Under the pieces are notes generated by a model, which saw nothing but the letters and a program-made list of their open reading frames with translations, did no database searches and was not told the origin of the DNA. A stretch of DNA of 8,883 nt from a virus. Its lineage: Duplodnaviria; Heunggongvirae; Uroviricota; Caudoviricetes. This document shows, one piece after another, positions 415 to 8,883 of this stretch. The first letter of the stretch is position 1, and each line of letters starts with the position of its first letter. The translations under genes were made by a program, and so were the position numbers. Location of the stretch: IMG/VR virus record IMGVR_UViG_2667527918_000004. The stretch is one strand, 5' to 3'.

Positions 415-998
415 TTACTCAGATGTAACCTCAGTTGTTGTTTCAGGGCATACCCCAGCTGTTTCGGCATTTCCGCAGCAATGATGCGGTCGCGGGCATC
501 TTCAAATGCCTGTGTCAGCGGTCCGGACATCGGGATTTTCACCACATCAATGGGGTAACGATTTTTGCCGTCAATACGCCGCATCACATGCCAGCGACCA
601 TTCGCCAGTTGCTGAATAAACGCATCCCGGAAAAGGTATTTCCCCACTTTCAGTACGCTGCCACGATGACGTGAGTTGCTGCCATGCCGGGAGCGGGCCA
701 GTCTGACCTGTGCGGTACCCAGCTTAATGGCGGGCAGGTTACCCCGGTTAACACGCATGCGGGCATACATTTTTCCTGAGGGGCTGGCTTTAAGCAGCCT
801 GACACGCTCCCTGACCGTTTTCAGGGGAATACCTTTCACCTGGTTATCCCCGGCAACGGTATTCTGCGCAACCTGCCGTGTGGCGACAGAAACAATCTTT
901 GCCGCCACACGGTTTACCGCCCATGCGCTGGTCTGTGGCACCATGCGGGTATCGAGGCTGTTCAGATTGCGGATGGCATTCTCAAGTCCCTTCATCAT
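411..998 (-). CDS. Z: tail completion / minor tail protein Z, lambda gpZ-like
   Basis: 195-aa ORF. N-terminus M(M)KGLE.A..NL and C-terminal block NGRWHVM.R..GKNRYPIDVVKIPM...LGYAL..QLR match recalled lambda gpZ. GAGG lies 5-8 nt upstream of the tandem ATGs at 998/995. Confidence 0.88.
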   Translation of the reverse strand: MMKGLENAIRNLNSLDTRMVPQTSAWAVNRVAAKIVSVATRQVAQNTVAGDNQVKGIPLKTVRERVRLLKASPSGKMYARMRVNRGNLPAIKLGTAQVRLARSRHGSNSRHRGSVLKVGKYLFRDAFIQQLANGRWHVMRRIDGKNRYPIDVVKIPMSGPLTQAFEDARDRIIAAEMPKQLGYALKQQLRLHLSK

Positions 999-1359
999 AT
1001 CGCCTCATTCTGGCATTATTCTGTGGGGCAGGACTGCCCCGCCTTAACCGGATATAACAGCATCCCCCGTCATCCGGAGTAATACGATCCACAAAGAAAG
1101 AATCATCCCCGATAGTTAACGTATCCTGACGGCGTAACTGCGATATATCTGCCGTTTTCACAAACAGGCACGGTGAGGAATCCTCAAGCCGGATCCCCCC
1201 GGCAACAAAAGAAATACTTTCGGGATCATCAAAAACCCCTGTCAGGTGTGTCCCCTCAAGTTCTCCGGACGTAATGACGGCGCTGATCCCCATATCACGG
1301 AGAATGACTTCATTGACACCGGCAAGCGCAGCATCAAACAGATTATCGAAACCGTCCAC
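982..1359 (-). CDS. FII: head-tail joining / head completion protein FII, lambda gpFII-like
   Basis: 125-aa ORF. N-terminus M.GFDNLFDAA and motifs GVFDDPE.IS, QLRR.DTLTIG, PDDGG match recalled lambda gpFII. GTG start at 1357..1359 with AGGAG 7 nt upstream. About 8 aa longer than lambda FII at the C-terminus, overlapping the Z start by 17 nt. Confidence 0.85.
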   Translation of the reverse strand: MDGFDNLFDAALAGVNEVILRDMGISAVITSGELEGTHLTGVFDDPESISFVAGGIRLEDSSPCLFVKTADISQLRRQDTLTIGDDSFFVDRITPDDGGCCYIRLRRGSPAPQNNARMRRYDEGT

Positions 1360-1370
1360 GACATCTCCTG

Positions 1371-1757
1371 TTACTGCCTTTTTGCCAGACCACCTGCCGC
1401 CATGCTGGCAGCCACCTCAGCAGAAACACGAAACGACGTTCCCGGTGAAACAAATATCACTGAACCATTACATTTTGTATGCAGTGTCGCCAGTGCCACC
1501 ACCGTAACCTGCCCCGTTTCGTCTCCGGTAACAATGCCTGGCTGTTCAGGAACTGACTCGCCTTTATGCGCGGTCGGATCATCTTTCGATGGTGAGTACG
1601 TATCCGGCTCTGCGACCTCCCCCGCATCTCCAAGCTCTTCCTCCAGTTCCGCCACTCGCTGCGCAATATCTGCCGCACTACCGGAGACATCCGGTTCACG
1701 CCCCAGCCTCTCAGCCAGCTCACAAAGACGTTTCAGGTTTTCTTCTTTCGTAGCCAT
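1371..1757 (-). CDS. FI: DNA-packaging protein FI, lambda gpFI-like
   Basis: Conserved C-terminal block VTVVAL..LHT......V.PGT.FRVSA.VAA.M...GLA matches recalled lambda gpFI, with an acidic linker region. I place the start at ATG 1755..1757 (MATKEE..., AGGAG 8 nt upstream) rather than the ORF-track start at 1790. Confidence 0.8.
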   Translation of the reverse strand: MATKEENLKRLCELAERLGREPDVSGSAADIAQRVAELEEELGDAGEVAEPDTYSPSKDDPTAHKGESVPEQPGIVTGDETGQVTVVALATLHTKCNGSVIFVSPGTSFRVSAEVAASMAAGGLAKRQ

Positions 1758-1771
1758 ACCCGCTCCTGATT

Positions 1772-1800
1772 GAATGAAAAACGGGAGCATTTAGCTCCCG
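1772..1800 (-). terminator. intrinsic-terminator-like hairpin between E and FI (7-bp GC-rich stem, 5-nt loop, U5 tract)
   Basis: On the minus strand: CGGGAGC-UAAAU-GCUCCCG (1800..1782) followed by UUUUUCAUU (1781..1773). It starts 9 nt after the E stop codon and ends before the FI RBS. Confidence 0.45.
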
Positions 1801-3278: not shown

Positions 3279-4163
3279 TCATGGCATGGCCATGAGCATT
3301 TTCACGTCCGCATCACCGTCTGCTGACGTCTGTGGCACGCCACCCTGTACCGCTGCCGGTGAATGGTTCGCCATGAAATGTTCAAACATGGCGGGTGTGG
3401 GTGGNNNNNNNNNNNNNNNNNNNNNNNNNNNNNNNNNNNNNNNNNNNNNNNNNNNNNNNNNNNNNNNNNNNNNNNNNNNNNNNNNNNNNNNNNNNNNNNN
3501 NNNNNNNNNNNNNNNNNNNNNNNNNNNNNNNNNNNNNNNNNNNNNNNNNNNNAGTTTTTCAGCCTGCGCCTCTGCCCCTTTTGCCTCATCCAGGGCCATA
3601 ATCTGATCACGAAGTGAGGGTCCGGCATTCGCCTGCGGTGAAGCAGCCAGAATCGGACGGGCTTTTTCCACCGTCATCTCCGGCATCGCCGCCAGCGTTG
3701 CCGCCAGTTGTTCACGTCCTTTCGCCTCTTCACATGCCATAATGCGATCGGCTTCACTCTGCGCAGATACACCAGATTGTTGCGGTGCCGCCACGGCCAG
3801 AATCGCCCGGGCCTGCTCAACGCTCATACCCTGTTGCCCTGCCAGCATCGTGGCCAGTTGTTCACGTCCTTTCGCTTCCTGACACGTCAGGATCCCCATC
3901 ACTCGCTGGTTCTCCTGCGCGGCAGCCTCCGTTGCAGTTAATTGCGGCATAGTGCCTCCTGTATCGTGTGTGTTCAGCGTCGCAGCCATCACGCTGATGG
4001 CGTCCGACGCATTGATTAATTCATCCGCCAGTTCGGCCTCAATACCGGACTGACCTTCAAAAACGGCGGCCTCTGTTCCCATAACCGCATCCACAGATAA
4101 ACCGGTATACATCGCCACTTTTTCAGCAAACATCCGGCGCGCCGCATCAATGCGCTGCTGCAT
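3279..4163 (-). CDS. possible nested in-frame scaffolding protein (lambda Nu3-like), translated from an internal start of the C frame
   Basis: Inference from lambda, where Nu3 is the C-terminal third of the C reading frame started internally. Candidate in-frame ATGs at 4161..4163 (M231) and 4131..4133 (M241) lie near the region aligned to the lambda Nu3 start. Neither has a convincing Shine-Dalgarno sequence. Confidence 0.3.
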   Translation of the reverse strand: MQQRIDAARRMFAEKVAMYTGLSVDAVMGTEAAVFEGQSGIEAELADELINASDAISVMAATLNTHDTGGTMPQLTATEAAAQENQRVMGILTCQEAKGREQLATMLAGQQGMSVEQARAILAVAAPQQSGVSAQSEADRIMACEEAKGREQLAATLAAMPEMTVEKARPILAASPQANAGPSLRDQIMALDEAKGAEAQAEKXXXXXXXXXXXXXXXXXXXXXXXXXXXXXXXXXXXXXXXXXXXXXXXXXXPPTPAMFEHFMANHSPAAVQGGVPQTSADGDADVKMLMAMP

Positions 4164-4853
4164 GTCCTGGCGAACCTTTGCTGGCAGGGATTCAAACTGA
4201 TTGCCATCCACCTTGTGCGATCCGGCGTAAATCAGCGTGATATCCACACCGGCCTGTGCCAGATGACCGGCATAGCTGACATGGCCCATCATCACCCCAA
4301 TGGAGCCGATACGGGATGTCTGGGTAACCAGCCGTCGGGAGCAGGCCGATGCCAGTAACATGGCGGCTGAACAGGCCGTGTCATTGCACAGTGCCCAGAC
4401 AGGCTTCAGCTGCCGGAGACGGTAAATCATGTCAGCGCAGTCAAACGCGCCGGTGGCCTGCCCGCCAGAACTGTCAATGTCCAGCAGTACGCCCCGTACC
4501 TGAGTGTCCGCCATTGCCTGCTGAAGACAGGCGACAATGCCGTCATAGCCAGTCATTCCGGAAAATGGCCGCATGCCACCCAGCCGGTGTACCAGCGTGC
4601 CGGTCACCGGCAGTACAGCAATACCGTTCACCACCCGGTAAACACGGGCAGGTCGTTTGCCTCCGGCCATGTACTCGTCCGTTTCAGCCAGCATCCCGGG
4701 AGCGTCAAGCTGTACCTGCTGTTGCGGTACCGAAAGGCTTGCTGCGCCCATCTCACGCCCGAGCGCGCAAAAGAAAACCCGCGCATAGGCGGGCTCCAGA
4801 AGCAGCGGCTCATTGAATGCCGCAGCGATAATATGTGAAAGATTACGTCTCAC
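3279..4853 (-). CDS. C: head maturation protease / minor capsid protein C (S49 peptidase family), lambda gpC-like, with C-terminal Nu3-type scaffold region; interrupted by a 148-N gap
   Basis: N-terminal 300 aa collinear with recalled lambda gpC (AFNEPL.LEPAYARVFFCAL, NGIAVLPV.GTLV, SGMTGY.GI, GAFDCAD.I, KPVWAL.ND..CSA..LLASA.SRRLVTQT.R.GSIGVMM.H, ITLIY.GSHKVDGN, GLADEL.N..DAI.VM). GTG start at 4851..4853 with GGAGA about 10 nt upstream, overlapping the end of B by 11 nt. The reading frame is continuous across the N-run only if the stated gap length is taken literally. Confidence 0.85.
   Translation of the reverse strand: MRRNLSHIIAAAFNEPLLLEPAYARVFFCALGREMGAASLSVPQQQVQLDAPGMLAETDEYMAGGKRPARVYRVVNGIAVLPVTGTLVHRLGGMRPFSGMTGYDGIVACLQQAMADTQVRGVLLDIDSSGGQATGAFDCADMIYRLRQLKPVWALCNDTACSAAMLLASACSRRLVTQTSRIGSIGVMMGHVSYAGHLAQAGVDITLIYAGSHKVDGNQFESLPAKVRQDMQQRIDAARRMFAEKVAMYTGLSVDAVMGTEAAVFEGQSGIEAELADELINASDAISVMAATLNTHDTGGTMPQLTATEAAAQENQRVMGILTCQEAKGREQLATMLAGQQGMSVEQARAILAVAAPQQSGVSAQSEADRIMACEEAKGREQLAATLAAMPEMTVEKARPILAASPQANAGPSLRDQIMALDEAKGAEAQAEKXXXXXXXXXXXXXXXXXXXXXXXXXXXXXXXXXXXXXXXXXXXXXXXXXXPPTPAMFEHFMANHSPAAVQGGVPQTSADGDADVKMLMAMP
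3405..3552. other. assembly gap (148 N)
   Basis: Uninterrupted run of N inside the C gene, directly adjacent to the tandem-repeat region. Confidence 0.99.
3553..3900 (-). repeat. diverged tandem repeat, period about 141-150 nt, at least 3 copies (third copy runs into the N gap); encodes a repeated 47-50 aa unit in the C/Nu3 scaffold region
   Basis: Exact 23-mer gccagttgttcacgtcctttcgc at 3703..3725 and 3853..3875 (150 nt apart). Shared blocks gccataat.{2}gatc and ccagaatcg..cgggc between the copies at 3553..3700 and 3701..3850. Protein repeats ..C.EAKGREQLA..LA......VE.AR.ILA...PQ at residues about 318-367, 368-417 and 418 onward. Confidence 0.85.
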
Positions 4854-6436
4854 GTGATGTTGTCTCCTCTTCCGGCCTGCGACTCTCCGCTATCTGCTGC
4901 TGATACGCCTGGGCTATCCACACCGGACGTGAGAGTCCGGCTTTTTCGCGCTCTGCGGATTCCCTGACCTGCTGGCGGAAAATGTCCTGATAATCTTCGC
5001 CCATCAGTGCCAGTTCTTTCTCATACGTGCTCAGTCCGGCCTCAATGCGCATCACCGATTCCTGGACCTCCTTGAGCCCGTCAATGGCCATTCTTCCGGA
5101 GCTAATCCACTCTGCCCGTGACCAGGCTGAACGCGCCTGGTAAAAATCAAAACGCGCCCGTGGCGGACGAATAATCCCCCGAAGAAGCGCCTCTTCCAGC
5201 CAGCAGGAAAACATCTGCGTGGCCAGCCGGGCCGCAATAAATTTTCGCCGCCCCATAAAATAGCGCCACGACTCATTGGCGGAGGCGCGGGCACTTGAGT
5301 AACTGACCTTCGAGTAATCACGGGACAACTGTTCGTAGGAAACGCCAAGACCGGCTGCAATATACCGCAGCAGCGCCTGTTCAAGCGCCGAAAATCCATT
5401 GTCTGAATCCTGCGCTGTCTGCAGGTTCAGCGCATCGCCAGGAAAAAAGGTGCGGAATTTTAACACCGCCCAGCGTCACGTTATTCGTGTCATACCAGCG
5501 GGTGAACTTCTCCAGAATATTAATAAGCGGATTATCCTGCTGACCTTGCGGTGCCCCCGCGATATATTCAAATGCCTTTTCGGTATCAAGTTCACTTTCG
5601 ATTGTGGCTGCATACATCGCCTTCACAATGGCCGACTGAAGCTGCGTGGCCTGCAGGGAGTCCAGCATCTTCATCCGCTCCATTACGCTGTAAAACTGAT
5701 TAGCCCCACGGGTCTGCCCGTCCTCCACCGGCTCAAAAATATGCAGCATGGCCGGACGCCCGGTGGGAAGCTCACGCGGGATCCGCTCCCAGCGTCCGGC
5801 ACCAGAGAACGGAAAATCATCCTCACAGATATGGTACGCAATCGCCCGCCCATACCGATCGACCTCAACCCCGGCCCGCAGAAAGTGGTTCCCCATACCG
5901 TGTCCTGGCGTGTCCACCCGTTTCGGACTCACGGCTTTAAAACGCGTACGGAATAACTGCGTGGTTTCCGTATCCCAGACCGGCTGCACAAAGATTTCGC
6001 CGTTAAAGGCATGCACGCCCACCCCTTCACGGATAAATTCCGTAAACGTGCGTTTCCCTTCCACGTCGATCTCGCCAAACATTCCTTCTGCGTATTCCGA
6101 CCAGGCTGCTTCCACCTCCCCGACAAAACTTTTTGCCGTGGTCTCCCGCATCCCCAGCCAACGCCAGTTCAGACGGTAGCTGATAAGAAACATGTGCCCG
6201 ACGATATGATCCTTATGCAGGGCCACCGCATTAGCCGCGATACCGTTATTGCGCACCAGATCATCTGCCCGGGCATTCCCCAGACGCAATGCAGGCAACA
6301 GGGCCGCATCGGCACTCTGCGCCGGTGGTAACCACTCTGCCATTTGCCCGCCAAATCCTGCGCCGCCTCCGTTGTAGCTGAGACTCTCACGAAGCGGAAC
6401 GCCGTTCACATCAATCAGGACAGGCGTTCGTTTCAT
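4843..6436 (-). CDS. B: portal protein, lambda gpB-like, interrupted by an apparent +1 frameshift in a T6 run (complement of 5443..5448)
   Basis: Two adjacent minus-strand ORFs (5381..6436 and 4843..5466) are together collinear with recalled lambda gpB: DAALLP, GNARADDLVRNNG.AANA, RTFT..IREGV..HAFNGE.FVQ, VSPKR, FEPVEDGQTRGAN.FYSVME.MKMLD.LQ.TQLQSAIVKAMYAATIESELDT in the first; PGD.LNLQTAQD.DNG, LRYIAAGLGVSYEQLSR, ARASANESW.YFMGRRKF, GRMAIDGLKEVQE.VM.IEAGLSTYEKE in the second. ATG at 6434..6436 overlaps the W stop (ATGA), with GGGAGTGAGG upstream. Confidence 0.85.
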
Positions 6437-6636
6437 AACCTCACTCCCAGCGGTCGGCGGCGTCGGGTCGTACCCAGAACCGACTCCGCATCGTTGATCG
6501 CACGGTTAAGCTCATTCAGGGACGCTGCCGTATATTCGATCCTGCGACCGTCTTTCTGTACCGACACAACCCGTTTACCGGTTAATAAATCAAGGCGCGC
6601 CTGACGCAGCGCCTGCAGTTCAGCGACTGTAACCAT
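6433..6636 (-). CDS. W: head-tail joining protein W, lambda gpW-like
   Basis: 67-aa ORF. Core LL/MTGKRV..VQKDGRR.E.TA.S and RRRR near the C-terminus match recalled lambda gpW (68 aa). The A stop TGA is directly followed by the W ATG (TGAATG), with GGAGGAG upstream. Confidence 0.9.
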   Translation of the reverse strand: MVTVAELQALRQARLDLLTGKRVVSVQKDGRRIEYTAASLNELNRAINDAESVLGTTRRRRPLGVRL

Positions 6637-8547
6637 TCACTCCTCCGGACAGCTTCGCTGCCAGTTCTTCAAGGGTCGGTTGTGCAGTTGCATCCTTGCG
6701 GGATGCAACTGCACAGCCAGATCAAGTTGCCAGCGTTGCACGGACACACGTAATGCCGCATAGGCATACACCAGGCAGTCCAGCGCTTCGTTACGCCGCT
6801 TTTTGTTATCCCACAACAGACGCATCTTTCCTTTTTCCCACTTTTCCACCAGTTCCTCCGCCACCAGTTGTTGTGCCTCTGTCTGCGAAAAAATCTCCGG
6901 ATTATCAGGAAAGCGGATGGCATACGATGTGGCCTCATTCACAGGGGTGGGATCGGCCTTCATTCGGGCATAGAGAATTTCTTTTGCGGTATCCGTCCCC
7001 ACCTCACACAGATACACACCCCGCTGATTGCGGGTTTTCGGCATGGTGATCACCGGCTTGCCATAGACAGAGGCACCTTTTACCGGCAGTACCCGGAAAA
7101 TACCGTGTTTTTTTGACCTCTGATACACGATTTCGCCATCGATCCCCCCGATATCCCAGCAGACACGGGAAATGGTCATTTCGGTACCGTCTGCATGGCG
7201 GTATTTTTTATTGATCGCCGCATCCACACGTAACAGCGTCTCTTCCTCATCAGGACGTCCCATGATGATGATTTTATCCACCAGAAAGGCTTCCTCTCCC
7301 GGAGCCCACCCCCAGACATACATCTCAAAACGGTTTCGCTGCGAGTCAATGCCCGCCGTCAGATAAACCACCCGGACAGGCACCGTTGCCGTGTAAGGCA
7401 CAACCTTATCCATCAGTACCTGGTGATCGAGTTTTTCGCCCACGGCCTCTTCCCAGGTCTCGCCCAGCGTGGTGTTCACAAAAGTTTTCACGCCGTTGGG
7501 ATCTTTCAGTGCATCCAGCCAGTCACAGACTATCTGTACCCTGGTGGTGAACGGACTGTACGCCGTCCATATATGGAAAGTGATGGAGCGCGGCGGCGGA
7601 ATTTCATTACCCGAAGCACTGAAAAACGTCAGACCGTCACACGTCCACATCCCGGTATTGTCACAAATCCAGCGCCCCCCGGTCTGATCAAGTTCAGACT
7701 GACGGATCACGCAGCCATTATGTTCACACAGGTAATACACCGTTTCCGGTTTACCCTTCTCCCATTTCAGGCCAAACGACGTCGCATCATCGCCAAACTT
7801 CAGATACTGCTCCTCCCCGCAATGAGGGCAAGGGACATAAAACCGCATGAAATGCGCAGATTCATTCGCAGCTTTTTCAATCTGACAGGAGCCTTTAATT
7901 TTTGGCGTTGAACCGCGTATGGATTTTGGCCATACCGAACCTTCAATACGTTTATCGCCAAGCAGTGTTGGCGAACCTTCTTTTTCCACATCCGGTTCAA
8001 ACGAGGAGAGTTCGTCATAGCAGACCACATCGACAGATTTTTCACGGTAGTTTTTGGCAGCAGCACCACCCAAACACCAGAACCCCACACCAGAGGAAAA
8101 ACGCTTCAGTGTGAGCGTATTATCCCGGTGTTTCCGGCCCAGCCAGGGAGAAAGTTTTTTCAGGCAAGGAACATCACGAATTGTTGCTTCCACGTGAGAC
8201 TTCATAAAATCTTCAGCAGCTGAGTCCGTCGGCTGAAAAAGAAGAGTGTTGCGGGATTTGTGCTCAATAAAATACCCGATCACACCAAGCACCATTTTTG
8301 TATAACCAACACGGGCAGATTTAATCAGGTTAACTGTACGAATCTCGTCATTGCCCATGCAGTTCATGATGGCGACCTGAAACTGCAGCGTTTTCCATTC
8401 CCCCTCACCGTATGACGATTCTTTAGGCAGGTAATAATTTTGATCGGCCCATTCTACAGCCGTCACCGGCAATACCCTGACCAGTGGCTGCAGTGCGATA
8501 GTGACTGCCACCATCATATTACTCAGTTGTTGTTCTGATATATTCAT
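6637..8547 (-). CDS. A: terminase large subunit, lambda gpA-like
   Basis: Extensive collinear matches to recalled lambda gpA: MNIS start, TAVEWAD.NYYLPKES, KSARVGY.KM.LGV..YFIEHK.RNTL, GKKHRDNTLT.KRF, FWCLGG.AAKNYREKSVDV, GSPT.LGDKRIEGSVWPKSIRGSTPK, HFMRF.V.CPHCGEEQYLKFGD, FHIWTAYSPFT, KTFVNTTLGETWE, YLTAGIDSQ, GASVYGKPV, LWD.KKRRNEALDC. I place the start at ATG 8545..8547 (MNIS...) rather than the ORF-track TTG at 8604. It overlaps the end of Nu1 by 29 nt, as in lambda. Confidence 0.95.
   Translation of the reverse strand: MNISEQQLSNMMVAVTIALQPLVRVLPVTAVEWADQNYYLPKESSYGEGEWKTLQFQVAIMNCMGNDEIRTVNLIKSARVGYTKMVLGVIGYFIEHKSRNTLLFQPTDSAAEDFMKSHVEATIRDVPCLKKLSPWLGRKHRDNTLTLKRFSSGVGFWCLGGAAAKNYREKSVDVVCYDELSSFEPDVEKEGSPTLLGDKRIEGSVWPKSIRGSTPKIKGSCQIEKAANESAHFMRFYVPCPHCGEEQYLKFGDDATSFGLKWEKGKPETVYYLCEHNGCVIRQSELDQTGGRWICDNTGMWTCDGLTFFSASGNEIPPPRSITFHIWTAYSPFTTRVQIVCDWLDALKDPNGVKTFVNTTLGETWEEAVGEKLDHQVLMDKVVPYTATVPVRVVYLTAGIDSQRNRFEMYVWGWAPGEEAFLVDKIIIMGRPDEEETLLRVDAAINKKYRHADGTEMTISRVCWDIGGIDGEIVYQRSKKHGIFRVLPVKGASVYGKPVITMPKTRNQRGVYLCEVGTDTAKEILYARMKADPTPVNEATSYAIRFPDNPEIFSQTEAQQLVAEELVEKWEKGKMRLLWDNKKRRNEALDCLVYAYAALRVSVQRWQLDLAVQLHPARMQLHNRPLKNWQRSCPEE
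6681..6715. repeat. perfect 15-bp inverted repeat (hairpin with 5-nt loop) inside the 3' end of A
   Basis: tgtgcagttgcatcc (6681..6695), loop ttgcg (6696..6700), ggatgcaactgcaca (6701..6715). Every position of the arms is Watson-Crick complementary. It lies 42 nt upstream of the A stop, on the minus strand. Confidence 0.8.
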
Positions 8548-8842
8548 CGAGTAAATCCGGTAATTTATCCCCCGCACGCGCGCACTGATTCGCTCCCTTA
8601 GCAATAAGGATTTTCAGATGATCAATATGACGCGGCGTTAAATCCGGGAACTGTCGTTGCATGGACAAAGGAATGGAGTCAAGCGTACTGGATAAAGCCA
8701 TCGCCAGCTTACTAAGGGCAAAAATACAAAATCCGGTATCGATAAGATTTCCTTTTGACACCTGATTTTTTAACTGCTGTGCGACAGCCTGTTCTGCGGT
8801 CAGTTCCCATCTGGCAATGAGTAGTTTGAGGTGTACTGGCAA
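8519..8842 (-). CDS. nu1: terminase small subunit, lambda Nu1-like, C-terminal (gpA-interacting) half only; N-terminal DNA-binding half not encoded in frame
   Basis: 107-aa ORF aligning to the C-terminal ~100 aa of recalled lambda Nu1 (LT..QA.AQ.LKN, FC.F.LS..A...S.LD..PLS.QR.FP.L..RH.D.LK, LP.LL.EYI). The first in-frame start is TTG at 8840..8842, and an in-frame stop (TAG, complement of 8852..8854) lies 3 codons upstream. Confidence 0.75.
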   Translation of the reverse strand: MPVHLKLLIARWELTAEQAVAQQLKNQVSKGNLIDTGFCIFALSKLAMALSSTLDSIPLSMQRQFPDLTPRHIDHLKILIAKGANQCARAGDKLPDLLDEYIRTTTE

Positions 8843-8883
8843 TAGCGGACACTACCATTTGTTCTTTTTTTAAGCAGCCATCT

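What the first reader, a model, noticed from the sequence alone, without database searches (positions are those of the whole stretch)
5440..5450. Portal gene B is split by a +1 frameshift in a T6 homopolymer
The coding strand reads CAC CTT TTT TCC TGG (HLFSW...), which runs into a stop after 20 further codons. With one fewer T it would read CAC CTT TTT CCT GGC GAT GCG CTG AAC CTG CAG (HLFPGDALNLQ), matching the lambda gpB motif HLMPGDSLNLQTAQD. The downstream ORF (4843..5466) continues the gpB homology to the C-terminus in that shifted frame. This is either a homopolymer sequencing error or a real inactivating mutation of an essential gene, which would mark the prophage as defective.
Basis: seen in the sequence. 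Interest (0 to 1): 0.5.

Follow-up and report, generated by a model that had tools for sequence, protein, structure and literature searches.

The report
Real frameshift in dead prophage portal
The portal gene of a lambda-like prophage is truly broken by one extra T, a mutation fixed across Shigella flexneri in a prophage that is also disabled in other ways, so this is ordinary gene decay and not a sequencing error.

Summary
On the minus strand the window reads CAC CTT TTT TCC TGG, with a T6 run at 5443..5448. The portal reading frame stops 20 codons later. The rest of the gene continues in the +1 frame (ORF 4843..5466).

The nearest E. coli relatives are 99.8-99.9% identical. They have T5 and an intact 530-aa portal.

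The T6 allele is not a sequencing error. The exact 351-aa truncated product is on record on at least 1000 contigs (2587 collection blocks). These include the independently sequenced S. flexneri strains 301, 2457T, 8401 and 2002017.

The few S. flexneri assemblies with T5 also drop bases in most other homopolymers of the region. Those T5 calls are therefore the likely artefacts.

The prophage has other lesions:
- IS600 cuts off the first 67 codons of the small terminase gene.
- In the window's sub-lineage, a quasipalindrome template-switch mutation frameshifts the large terminase C-terminus.
- That sub-lineage also carries G445S at a portal residue conserved with lambda.

Verdict: a lineage-fixed pseudogene in a decaying cryptic prophage, already visible as split genes in public annotation. 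Interest is low.

The parts
5443..5448 (-). T6 homopolymer (A6 on the + strand). It carries one T more than the T5 of intact orthologues and is the site of the +1 frameshift.
   Evidence: T6 is in the window and in 10 of 10 S. flexneri loci looked up by the truncated product. T5 is in all E. coli/EIEC loci.
5381..6436 (-). Portal 5' fragment ORF. It has 331 native residues (equivalent to lambda gpB 1-334: first wing half, first stem helix, most of the clip), then 20 out-of-frame codons (5384..5443) and a stop (5381..5383).
   Evidence: Lambda domain limits are from PMC10721106.
4843..5466 (-). Portal 3' fragment in the +1 frame. True portal coding runs from 5442 down to 4843 (residues 332-530: end of the clip, second stem helix, tunnel loop, second wing half, crown). 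The GTG at 5466 is only the mechanical start of the ORF.
5103..5103 (-). G-to-A substitution giving G445S at a glycine shared with lambda gpB (WIGSGRMAIDGLKE). It occurs only in the window's sub-lineage (type A). It lies downstream of the frameshift.
6433..6636 (-). gpW-like head-tail joining gene, intact and 100% identical to the E. coli orthologue.
6637..8547 (-). Large terminase (gpA family), 636 codons instead of 642. The last ~28 residues are replaced because of a -1 frameshift.
6678..6718 (.). Near-perfect inverted repeat (18-nt arms at 94% complementarity, with a perfect 14-nt core, and a 5-nt loop). It was created by a clustered change (one deletion plus three substitutions) relative to the ancestral imperfect palindrome. 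It is the source of the large terminase frameshift.
   Evidence: No inverted repeat is found at the same place in the E. coli orthologue.
8522..8827 (-). Remnant of the small terminase (Nu1 family) gene, residues 68-169 only.
   Evidence: The intact gene is 169 aa in the E. coli loci.
8828..8883 (.). End of an IS600 (IS3 family) copy that cuts off the 5' third of the small terminase gene. The junction is the same in both S. flexneri prophage types.
3279..4853 (-). gpC-like S49 protease/scaffold gene directly downstream of the portal. It contains a run of 148 N (3405..3552).

Best explanation
This is a genuine one-base insertion (T5 to T6). It most likely arose by slipped-strand mispairing during replication, in the portal gene of a lambdoid prophage whose head genes resemble those of phage 21. 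The host lineage is Shigella flexneri. Translation ends 20 codons after Phe331. The 351-aa product lacks the end of the clip, the second stem helix, the tunnel loop, half of the wing and the crown, so it cannot form the dodecameric DNA channel. The mutation arose once in an ancestor of S. flexneri. It is inherited by two diverged versions of the prophage, both of which also share an IS600 insertion in the small terminase gene. One version, which includes the window, later gained a large terminase frameshift and the G445S change. The gene is therefore a fixed pseudogene in a decaying cryptic prophage. Shown here: the insertion, its distribution, and the other lesions. Inferred: the slippage mechanism, loss of function, single origin, and non-inducibility.
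For: T6 against T5 is the only indel over 1.7 kb compared with 99.8-99.9% identical E. coli genomes that have an intact 530-aa portal. No complete E. coli genome carries T6. The exact truncated protein is on at least 1000 contigs in 2587 blocks, named from S. flexneri 301, 2457T, 8401 and 2002017. T6 is in all 10 S. flexneri loci, which fall into two prophage types differing by 0.2-0.8%. The site maps to lambda gpB residues 334/335, within the clip domain 280-342. The T5 form on a S. flexneri background was found on only 20 contigs. The ten of them that were fetched carry additional one-base deletions, which between them hit 9 of the 11 homopolymers of 6 or more bases in the region. Other lesions in the same module are nu1 cut by IS600 and the large terminase frameshift. 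Intact portal alleles are found together with an intact Nu1 (169 aa) in all ten loci shown and with an intact 642-aa TerL in nine of the ten (TerL is split in L033).
Against: No raw reads were inspected for the window's own genome. Its assembly has an N run and three odd bases next to it, so its local quality is imperfect. The site C CUU UUU UCC would allow tRNA-Phe to re-pair perfectly after a +1 slip, so some full-length portal could be made. Three T5 contigs (L015, L021, L023) show few or no other homopolymer errors, so rare true revertants cannot be excluded. Loss of function and non-inducibility are inferred, not measured.
Confidence: 0.93

Rival explanations
1. Homopolymer sequencing or assembly error: the true sequence is T5 and the gene is intact.
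For: The window comes from an assembly with a 148-N gap and low-quality bases beside it. Twenty S. flexneri contigs do show T5.
Against: The identical truncated product is on at least 1000 contigs in 2587 blocks and in complete genomes from unrelated projects. The fetched T5 contigs drop bases in 9 of the 11 other long homopolymers, so they are the error-prone ones.
Confidence: 0.01
2. Leaky or compensatory decoding. A fraction of ribosomes slip +1 on C CUU UUU UCC (tRNA-Phe moving from UUU to UUU), or RNA polymerase slips on the U run. Either would produce the exact wild-type portal sequence at a low but useful level.
For: Read from the sequence, a +1 slip of tRNA-Phe gives perfect re-pairing and restores HLFPGD. 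UUU followed by a pyrimidine is recalled as prone to rightward frameshifting in E. coli (Fu and Parker 1994; Schwartz and Curran 1997). Both references are listed, but their content is from memory. Compensatory frameshifting after 'savior' indels is a recognised class (PMC5009743).
Against: There is no Shine-Dalgarno-like stimulator 3-10 nt upstream (AAAUUCCGCAC). The next 0-frame codon, UCC, is not rare. All relatives outside S. flexneri are in frame with T5, so the arrangement has not been conserved. The terminase genes needed alongside the portal are also broken. G445S accumulated downstream of the site.
Confidence: 0.03
3. Phase-variable switch: the T run toggles between T5 and T6 to turn particle production on and off.
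For: Both lengths are seen in S. flexneri-background contigs.
Against: Six bases is short for a contingency tract. T6 is near-universal (2587 blocks against 20 contigs). The T5 cases coincide with general homopolymer under-calling. Switching on would be pointless with nu1 cut by IS600.
Confidence: 0.01
4. The 351-aa N-terminal portal fragment has been retained because it has a new role, for example poisoning head assembly of incoming related phages.
For: The fragment is identical at the protein level in both prophage types, while the downstream part has a nonsynonymous change.
Against: That identity is partly a product of the exact-sequence look-up. There are only 1-3 substitutions in the whole gene, so there is no statistical power. 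Late genes of a repressed or crippled prophage are unlikely to be expressed. No such function was tested.
Confidence: 0.02

Closest known systems
Lambda gpB / phage 21 portal ('head-tail preconnector gp5'), Pfam PF05136
   Same: The repaired protein is 96-97% identical to the portals of phage 21 and related coliphages. It aligns over residues 5-527 with lambda gpB of PDB 8k38. The gene order Nu1-A-W-B-C-D-E-FI-FII-Z-U is the same.
   Different: The reading frame is interrupted at the residue equivalent to lambda 334/335, so no full-length portal is encoded.
Cryptic lambdoid prophages with frameshifted or IS-disrupted morphogenesis genes (for example DLP12, Rac and Qin of E. coli K-12; pseudogene and IS-rich Shigella genomes)
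   Same: Point frameshifts and IS insertions have accumulated in packaging and head genes of a chromosomally fixed prophage.
   Different: Most head and tail genes are still full length here. Decay is at an early to middle stage and can be ordered: the shared IS600 insertion and T6 came first, and the large terminase frameshift and G445S came later.
prfB-type programmed +1 ribosomal frameshift (CUU UGA C)
   Same: A pyrimidine-U-U P-site codon followed by U would allow +1 re-pairing.
   Different: There is no stop or slow codon in the A site, no upstream Shine-Dalgarno-like element, and no conservation of the out-of-frame arrangement in homologues.

Membership tests
Lambda-family portal protein (PF05136) | Match to the family profile above the curated cut-off | tested here: met
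   Fragment 1 scores 228.7 bits, fragment 2 scores 80.4 bits and the repaired protein scores 326.5 bits, against a cut-off of 32.9.
Lambda-family portal protein (PF05136) | Full-length alignment with a structurally characterised member (lambda gpB) | tested here: met
Lambda-family portal protein (PF05136) | One uninterrupted reading frame encoding wing, stem, clip and crown | tested here: not met
   The frame breaks after residue 331. The second stem helix, tunnel loop and crown lie in another frame (domains).
Lambda-family portal protein (PF05136) | Position between the gpW-like gene and the gpC-like protease gene, downstream of the large terminase | tested here: met
Lineage-fixed pseudogene in a defective prophage | Disruption relative to intact, near-identical orthologues | tested here: met
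Lineage-fixed pseudogene in a defective prophage | The same lesion in many independent genomes of one lineage | tested here: met
Lineage-fixed pseudogene in a defective prophage | Other inactivating lesions in the same element | tested here: met
   nu1 cut by IS600. Large terminase frameshift.
Lineage-fixed pseudogene in a defective prophage | Relaxed selection on the disrupted gene | tested here: inconclusive
   There are only 1-3 substitutions. One is G445S at a residue conserved with lambda. This gives no statistical power.
Lineage-fixed pseudogene in a defective prophage | No infective particles produced | not testable with these tools
   Requires an induction experiment.
Programmed +1 ribosomal frameshift site | P-site tRNA can re-pair in the +1 frame | tested here: met
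   In C CUU UUU UCC, tRNA-Phe on UUU re-pairs with UUU after a +1 slip.
Programmed +1 ribosomal frameshift site | Slow A-site codon or stop, and/or an upstream Shine-Dalgarno-like stimulator | tested here: not met
   The next codon is UCC and the upstream sequence is AAAUUCCGCAC.
Programmed +1 ribosomal frameshift site | The out-of-frame arrangement is conserved among homologues | tested here: not met
   All homologues outside S. flexneri are in frame.
Phase-variable homopolymer (contingency locus) | Both tract lengths reliably present within the lineage | tested here: not met
   T5 is seen on 20 contigs; the ten fetched show general homopolymer under-calling.

The most novel reading that the evidence does not exclude
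The T6 allele is leaky. Perfect +1 re-pairing of tRNA-Phe on the U run, or transcriptional slippage, yields a small amount of portal with the exact wild-type sequence. The 'dead' gene would then still supply portal, for example to a co-resident or superinfecting lambdoid phage or satellite. Alternatively, the stable N-terminal fragment interferes with assembly of incoming phages.
Probability: 0.04. Interest if true: 0.35.

Novelty: already known. Interest (0 to 1): 0.1.

Why it matters
There is little of scientific novelty here. This is routine prophage decay in a pathogen known for pseudogenes and IS expansion. The split gene has been visible in public S. flexneri annotations as two adjacent 'head-tail preconnector gp5' entries.

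It is useful as a calibration case. A homopolymer frameshift that looks like a sequencing error is real, while the 'intact' versions in some assemblies are the errors. The shared and lineage-specific lesions also give an ordered series of markers for S. flexneri sub-lineages: the IS600 insertion in nu1 and T6 came first, and the large terminase quasipalindrome change and G445S came later.

Tried and rejected
1. Sequencing error. Rejected by the exact-sequence look-ups and by the error profile of the T5 contigs.
2. A T6 carrier among complete E. coli genomes. None was found. The carriers are S. flexneri, plus one record titled E. coli (CP178302.1).
3. Identifying the window's own record. The closest are L004 and L006 at 100% over 5.3 kb, but neither they nor L034 and L035 match across the N run. 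The source strain was not identified.
4. A tandem repeat to explain the extra 69 bases in gpC. TRF found nothing, and the extra length turned out to be a run of N.
5. A selection test (dN/dS) on the two portal fragments. There are too few substitutions.
6. Literature on this prophage and on UUU-pyrimidine frameshifting. No paper on this locus was found. Schwartz and Curran 1997 is not held, so its content is cited from memory only.
7. A programmed frameshift. No stimulatory elements were found and the arrangement is not conserved.

Full report
**Observation**

On the minus strand the window reads ...AAA ATT CCG CAC CTT TTT TCC TGG CGA TGC.... The T6 run occupies window 5443..5448.

ORF 5381..6436(-) gives 331 residues of portal sequence ending ...GGVKIPHLF. 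It is followed by 20 unrelated codons (SWRCAEPADSAGFRQWIFGA) and a stop. ORF 4843..5466(-) reads ...FPGDALNLQTAQDSDNGF... through to the C-terminus in the +1 frame.

Pfam PF05136 (lambda-family portal) is split exactly at the site. Fragment 1 matches profile positions 2-288 and ends at residue 331. Fragment 2 matches positions 288-354. tblastn with an intact orthologue changes frame at residues 325-331.

With one T removed, the gene gives a 530-aa protein. It aligns over residues 5-527 with lambda gpB (PDB 8k38, E = 4e-213). PHLFPGDALNLQTAQD lies opposite lambda PHLMPGDSLNLQTAQD.

**Is it real?**

Five complete E. coli genomes are 99.8-99.9% identical over 1.7 kb: CFSAN029787, RMDEC364, VL46, VL40 and FDAARGOS_943. 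They have an annotated intact 530-aa portal. In the three of them fetched and aligned (CFSAN029787, FDAARGOS_943, RMDEC364), the only differences from the window are the extra T and one or two substitutions. No complete E. coli genome has T6.

The exact 351-aa truncated product is nevertheless widespread. It is on at least 1000 contigs (the counting cap) and in 2587 blocks of the protein collection. Its names come from S. flexneri 2a 301 (AAN42336.1), 2457T (AAP16213.1), ABF04804.1 and ADA73063.1. The downstream 207-aa fragment is deposited beside it (AAN42337.2, AAP16214.1).

All ten S. flexneri loci fetched carry T6, including AE014073 (2457T). A scan of species-representative genomes found T6 in two further complete chromosomes. 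So many unrelated projects cannot share one random homopolymer error. The allele is real and fixed in this lineage.

**The apparent exceptions**

The repaired protein with the window's own S445 exists in the collection, but on only 20 contigs. One is an NCBI genome (CP037996.1). Of the nine Logan contigs fetched, eight come from the run series SRR315557xx-558xx and one from SRR16936277.

Against the 2457T sequence, the nine Logan contigs differ almost only by one-base deletions in homopolymers of 6-7 bases. In all ten contigs together, 9 of the 11 such runs in the region are hit at least once. CP037996.1 also carries several insertions outside homopolymers. This is the signature of systematic homopolymer under-calling, so T5 in these assemblies is most likely the artefact.

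Three contigs (L015, L021, L023) have few or no other such errors, so rare true revertants are not excluded. The T run is directly followed by CCTGG, a Dcm methylation motif. That might favour miscalls on some platforms. This is an inference, because the platforms are unknown to me.

**Consequence for the protein**

The break maps to lambda gpB residues 334/335. The published lambda structure assigns these domains (PMC10721106):
- wing: residues 24-249 and 368-452
- stem: residues 250-279 and 343-367
- clip: residues 280-342
- crown: residues 453-511
- a tunnel loop, and Gln379 contacting DNA

The 351-aa product therefore lacks the end of the clip, the second stem helix, the tunnel loop, half of the wing and the crown. 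Inability to form the dodecameric channel is inferred from this. It was not measured.

**Context: a decaying prophage**

The window is a lambda-type packaging, head and tail module: Nu1, A, W, B, C, D, E, FI, FII, Z, U. Its portal is 96-97% identical to the portals of phage 21 and related coliphages. There are three further lesions.

1. Small terminase. The last 56 bases of the window (8828..8883) are the end of an IS600 copy, and the small terminase match begins only at residue 68 of 169. The junction is identical in both S. flexneri prophage types.

2. Large terminase. The match changes frame at residues 612/615, giving 636 instead of 642 residues with a foreign C-terminus. The cause is a clustered change from GTGCTGGCGGCATCC to GTGCAGTTGCATCC. 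This turns an imperfect palindrome into a perfect 14-nt inverted repeat with the downstream GGATGCAACTGCAC. That is the pattern expected of a quasipalindrome template-switch mutation. The mechanism is established knowledge and is inferred here. The change is present only in type A loci (the window, L004, L006, L008, L009, L011) and not in type B (L005, L007, L010, L012, L013). From memory, the C-terminus of lambda gpA binds the prohead portal, so this lesion should also be inactivating.

3. Portal G445S (window 5103). It occurs in type A only, at a glycine shared with lambda.

Some strains show still more decay. One has a split large terminase (L009, which is the same record as L035). One has a shortened tape-measure gene (L007). 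One has a truncated gpM-like minor tail gene (Pfam Phage_min_tail, L012).

By contrast, the intact portal allele sits in E. coli/EIEC loci with a full 169-aa Nu1 in all ten shown, and a 642-aa TerL in nine of them. In the tenth, L033, TerL, the protease/scaffold gene and the major capsid gene are each split.

**Order of events (inferred by parsimony)**

The ancestral state was an intact prophage like those in EIEC. The IS600 insertion in nu1 and T5-to-T6 are shared by both types, which differ at 0.2-0.8% of sites. The large terminase template-switch frameshift and G445S came later, in type A.

**Mechanism**

The best explanation is slipped-strand mispairing at a T5 run, which added one T. The change was neutral or nearly so in a prophage already or soon crippled. 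It was then fixed by drift in S. flexneri.

**Alternatives considered**

A +1 slip of tRNA-Phe on C CUU UUU UCC would re-pair perfectly and restore the wild-type sequence. UUU followed by a pyrimidine is recalled as prone to frameshifting (references are listed; their content is from memory). Several points argue against a programmed or useful event:
- There is no upstream Shine-Dalgarno-like element.
- There is no slow A-site codon.
- Homologues elsewhere are in frame.
- The partner terminase genes are broken.

Phase variation fails because T5 appears only where homopolymers are generally under-called. A new function for the N-terminal fragment is untested, and the few substitutions give no power to detect it.

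**Comparison with what is known, and novelty**

The gene belongs to the lambda portal family by sequence and synteny, but it fails the intact-ORF criterion, so it is a portal pseudogene. The kind of event is ordinary: a frameshift and IS decay of a cryptic lambdoid prophage in a Shigella genome. The split gene has been in public annotation as two adjacent 'head-tail preconnector gp5' entries. No paper on this locus was found.

Interest is low (0.1). The most novel reading not excluded is leaky decoding or an interfering fragment, with a probability of about 0.04.

Noticed in passing
window 6678..6718 (large terminase gene, - strand): A clustered change (one deletion plus three substitutions) converts an imperfect palindrome into a perfect 14-nt inverted repeat and frameshifts the last ~28 residues of the large terminase. 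It looks like a natural quasipalindrome template-switch mutation. It is present in type A S. flexneri loci only.
   Followed up: yes
window 8828..8883 and 8522..8827: The end of an IS600 copy abuts the small terminase (Nu1) gene at codon 68, so the first third of the gene is missing or displaced. The junction is the same in both S. flexneri prophage types. Type B loci have several further IS copies upstream.
   Followed up: yes
window 3405..3552: There is a run of 148 N inside the gpC-like protease/scaffold gene, where relatives have about 80 bases. The 15 bases next to it differ at 3 positions from all relatives. This is an assembly gap or mask with a poor edge. It makes the ORF look like 524 aa instead of 501.
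   Followed up: partly
window 3279..3900 (- strand), C-terminal part of the gpC-like protein: The scaffold-like C-terminal region contains three similar ~40-residue repeats (...EAKGREQLA..M.VE.AR.ILAA...). One E. coli relative (L029) has a 548-aa version, which suggests repeat-number variation.
   Followed up: no
window 5103: G445S in the portal 3' fragment lies at a glycine shared with lambda gpB. It is found only in the type A sub-lineage.
   Followed up: yes
window ~990..1790 (FI and FII genes, - strand): There is a mosaic boundary. FI and FII are only 54% and 65% identical to those of the EIEC prophage L001, while the flanking head genes are 97-100% identical. FDAARGOS_943 (L002) shares the window's FI/FII type.
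   Followed up: no
L014 (CP037996.1), about 3770..3800 and 4980..4990: This single S. flexneri assembly has T5 in the portal and also an extra T in the large terminase palindrome (GTGCTAGTTGCATCC) that restores that frame. It also has a 3-base insertion in gpW and another insertion early in the large terminase. It is not explained: it could be an error-prone or edited assembly, or a real variant.
   Followed up: partly
L009/L035 (CP178302.1) and L034 (CP182556.1), large terminase gene: In L009 (the same record as L035) a +1 insertion and a -1 deletion 128 bases apart split the large terminase into 201-aa and 397-aa products, which is additional decay. L034 also differs from the window by two gaps in this stretch, but their positions were not checked. 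CP178302.1 is titled E. coli but carries the S. flexneri allele.
   Followed up: no
L004 2321..3742: One S. flexneri strain has a group II intron-type reverse transcriptase gene (RVT_1 + GIIM) inserted between the Q antiterminator and the holin gene of this prophage.
   Followed up: no
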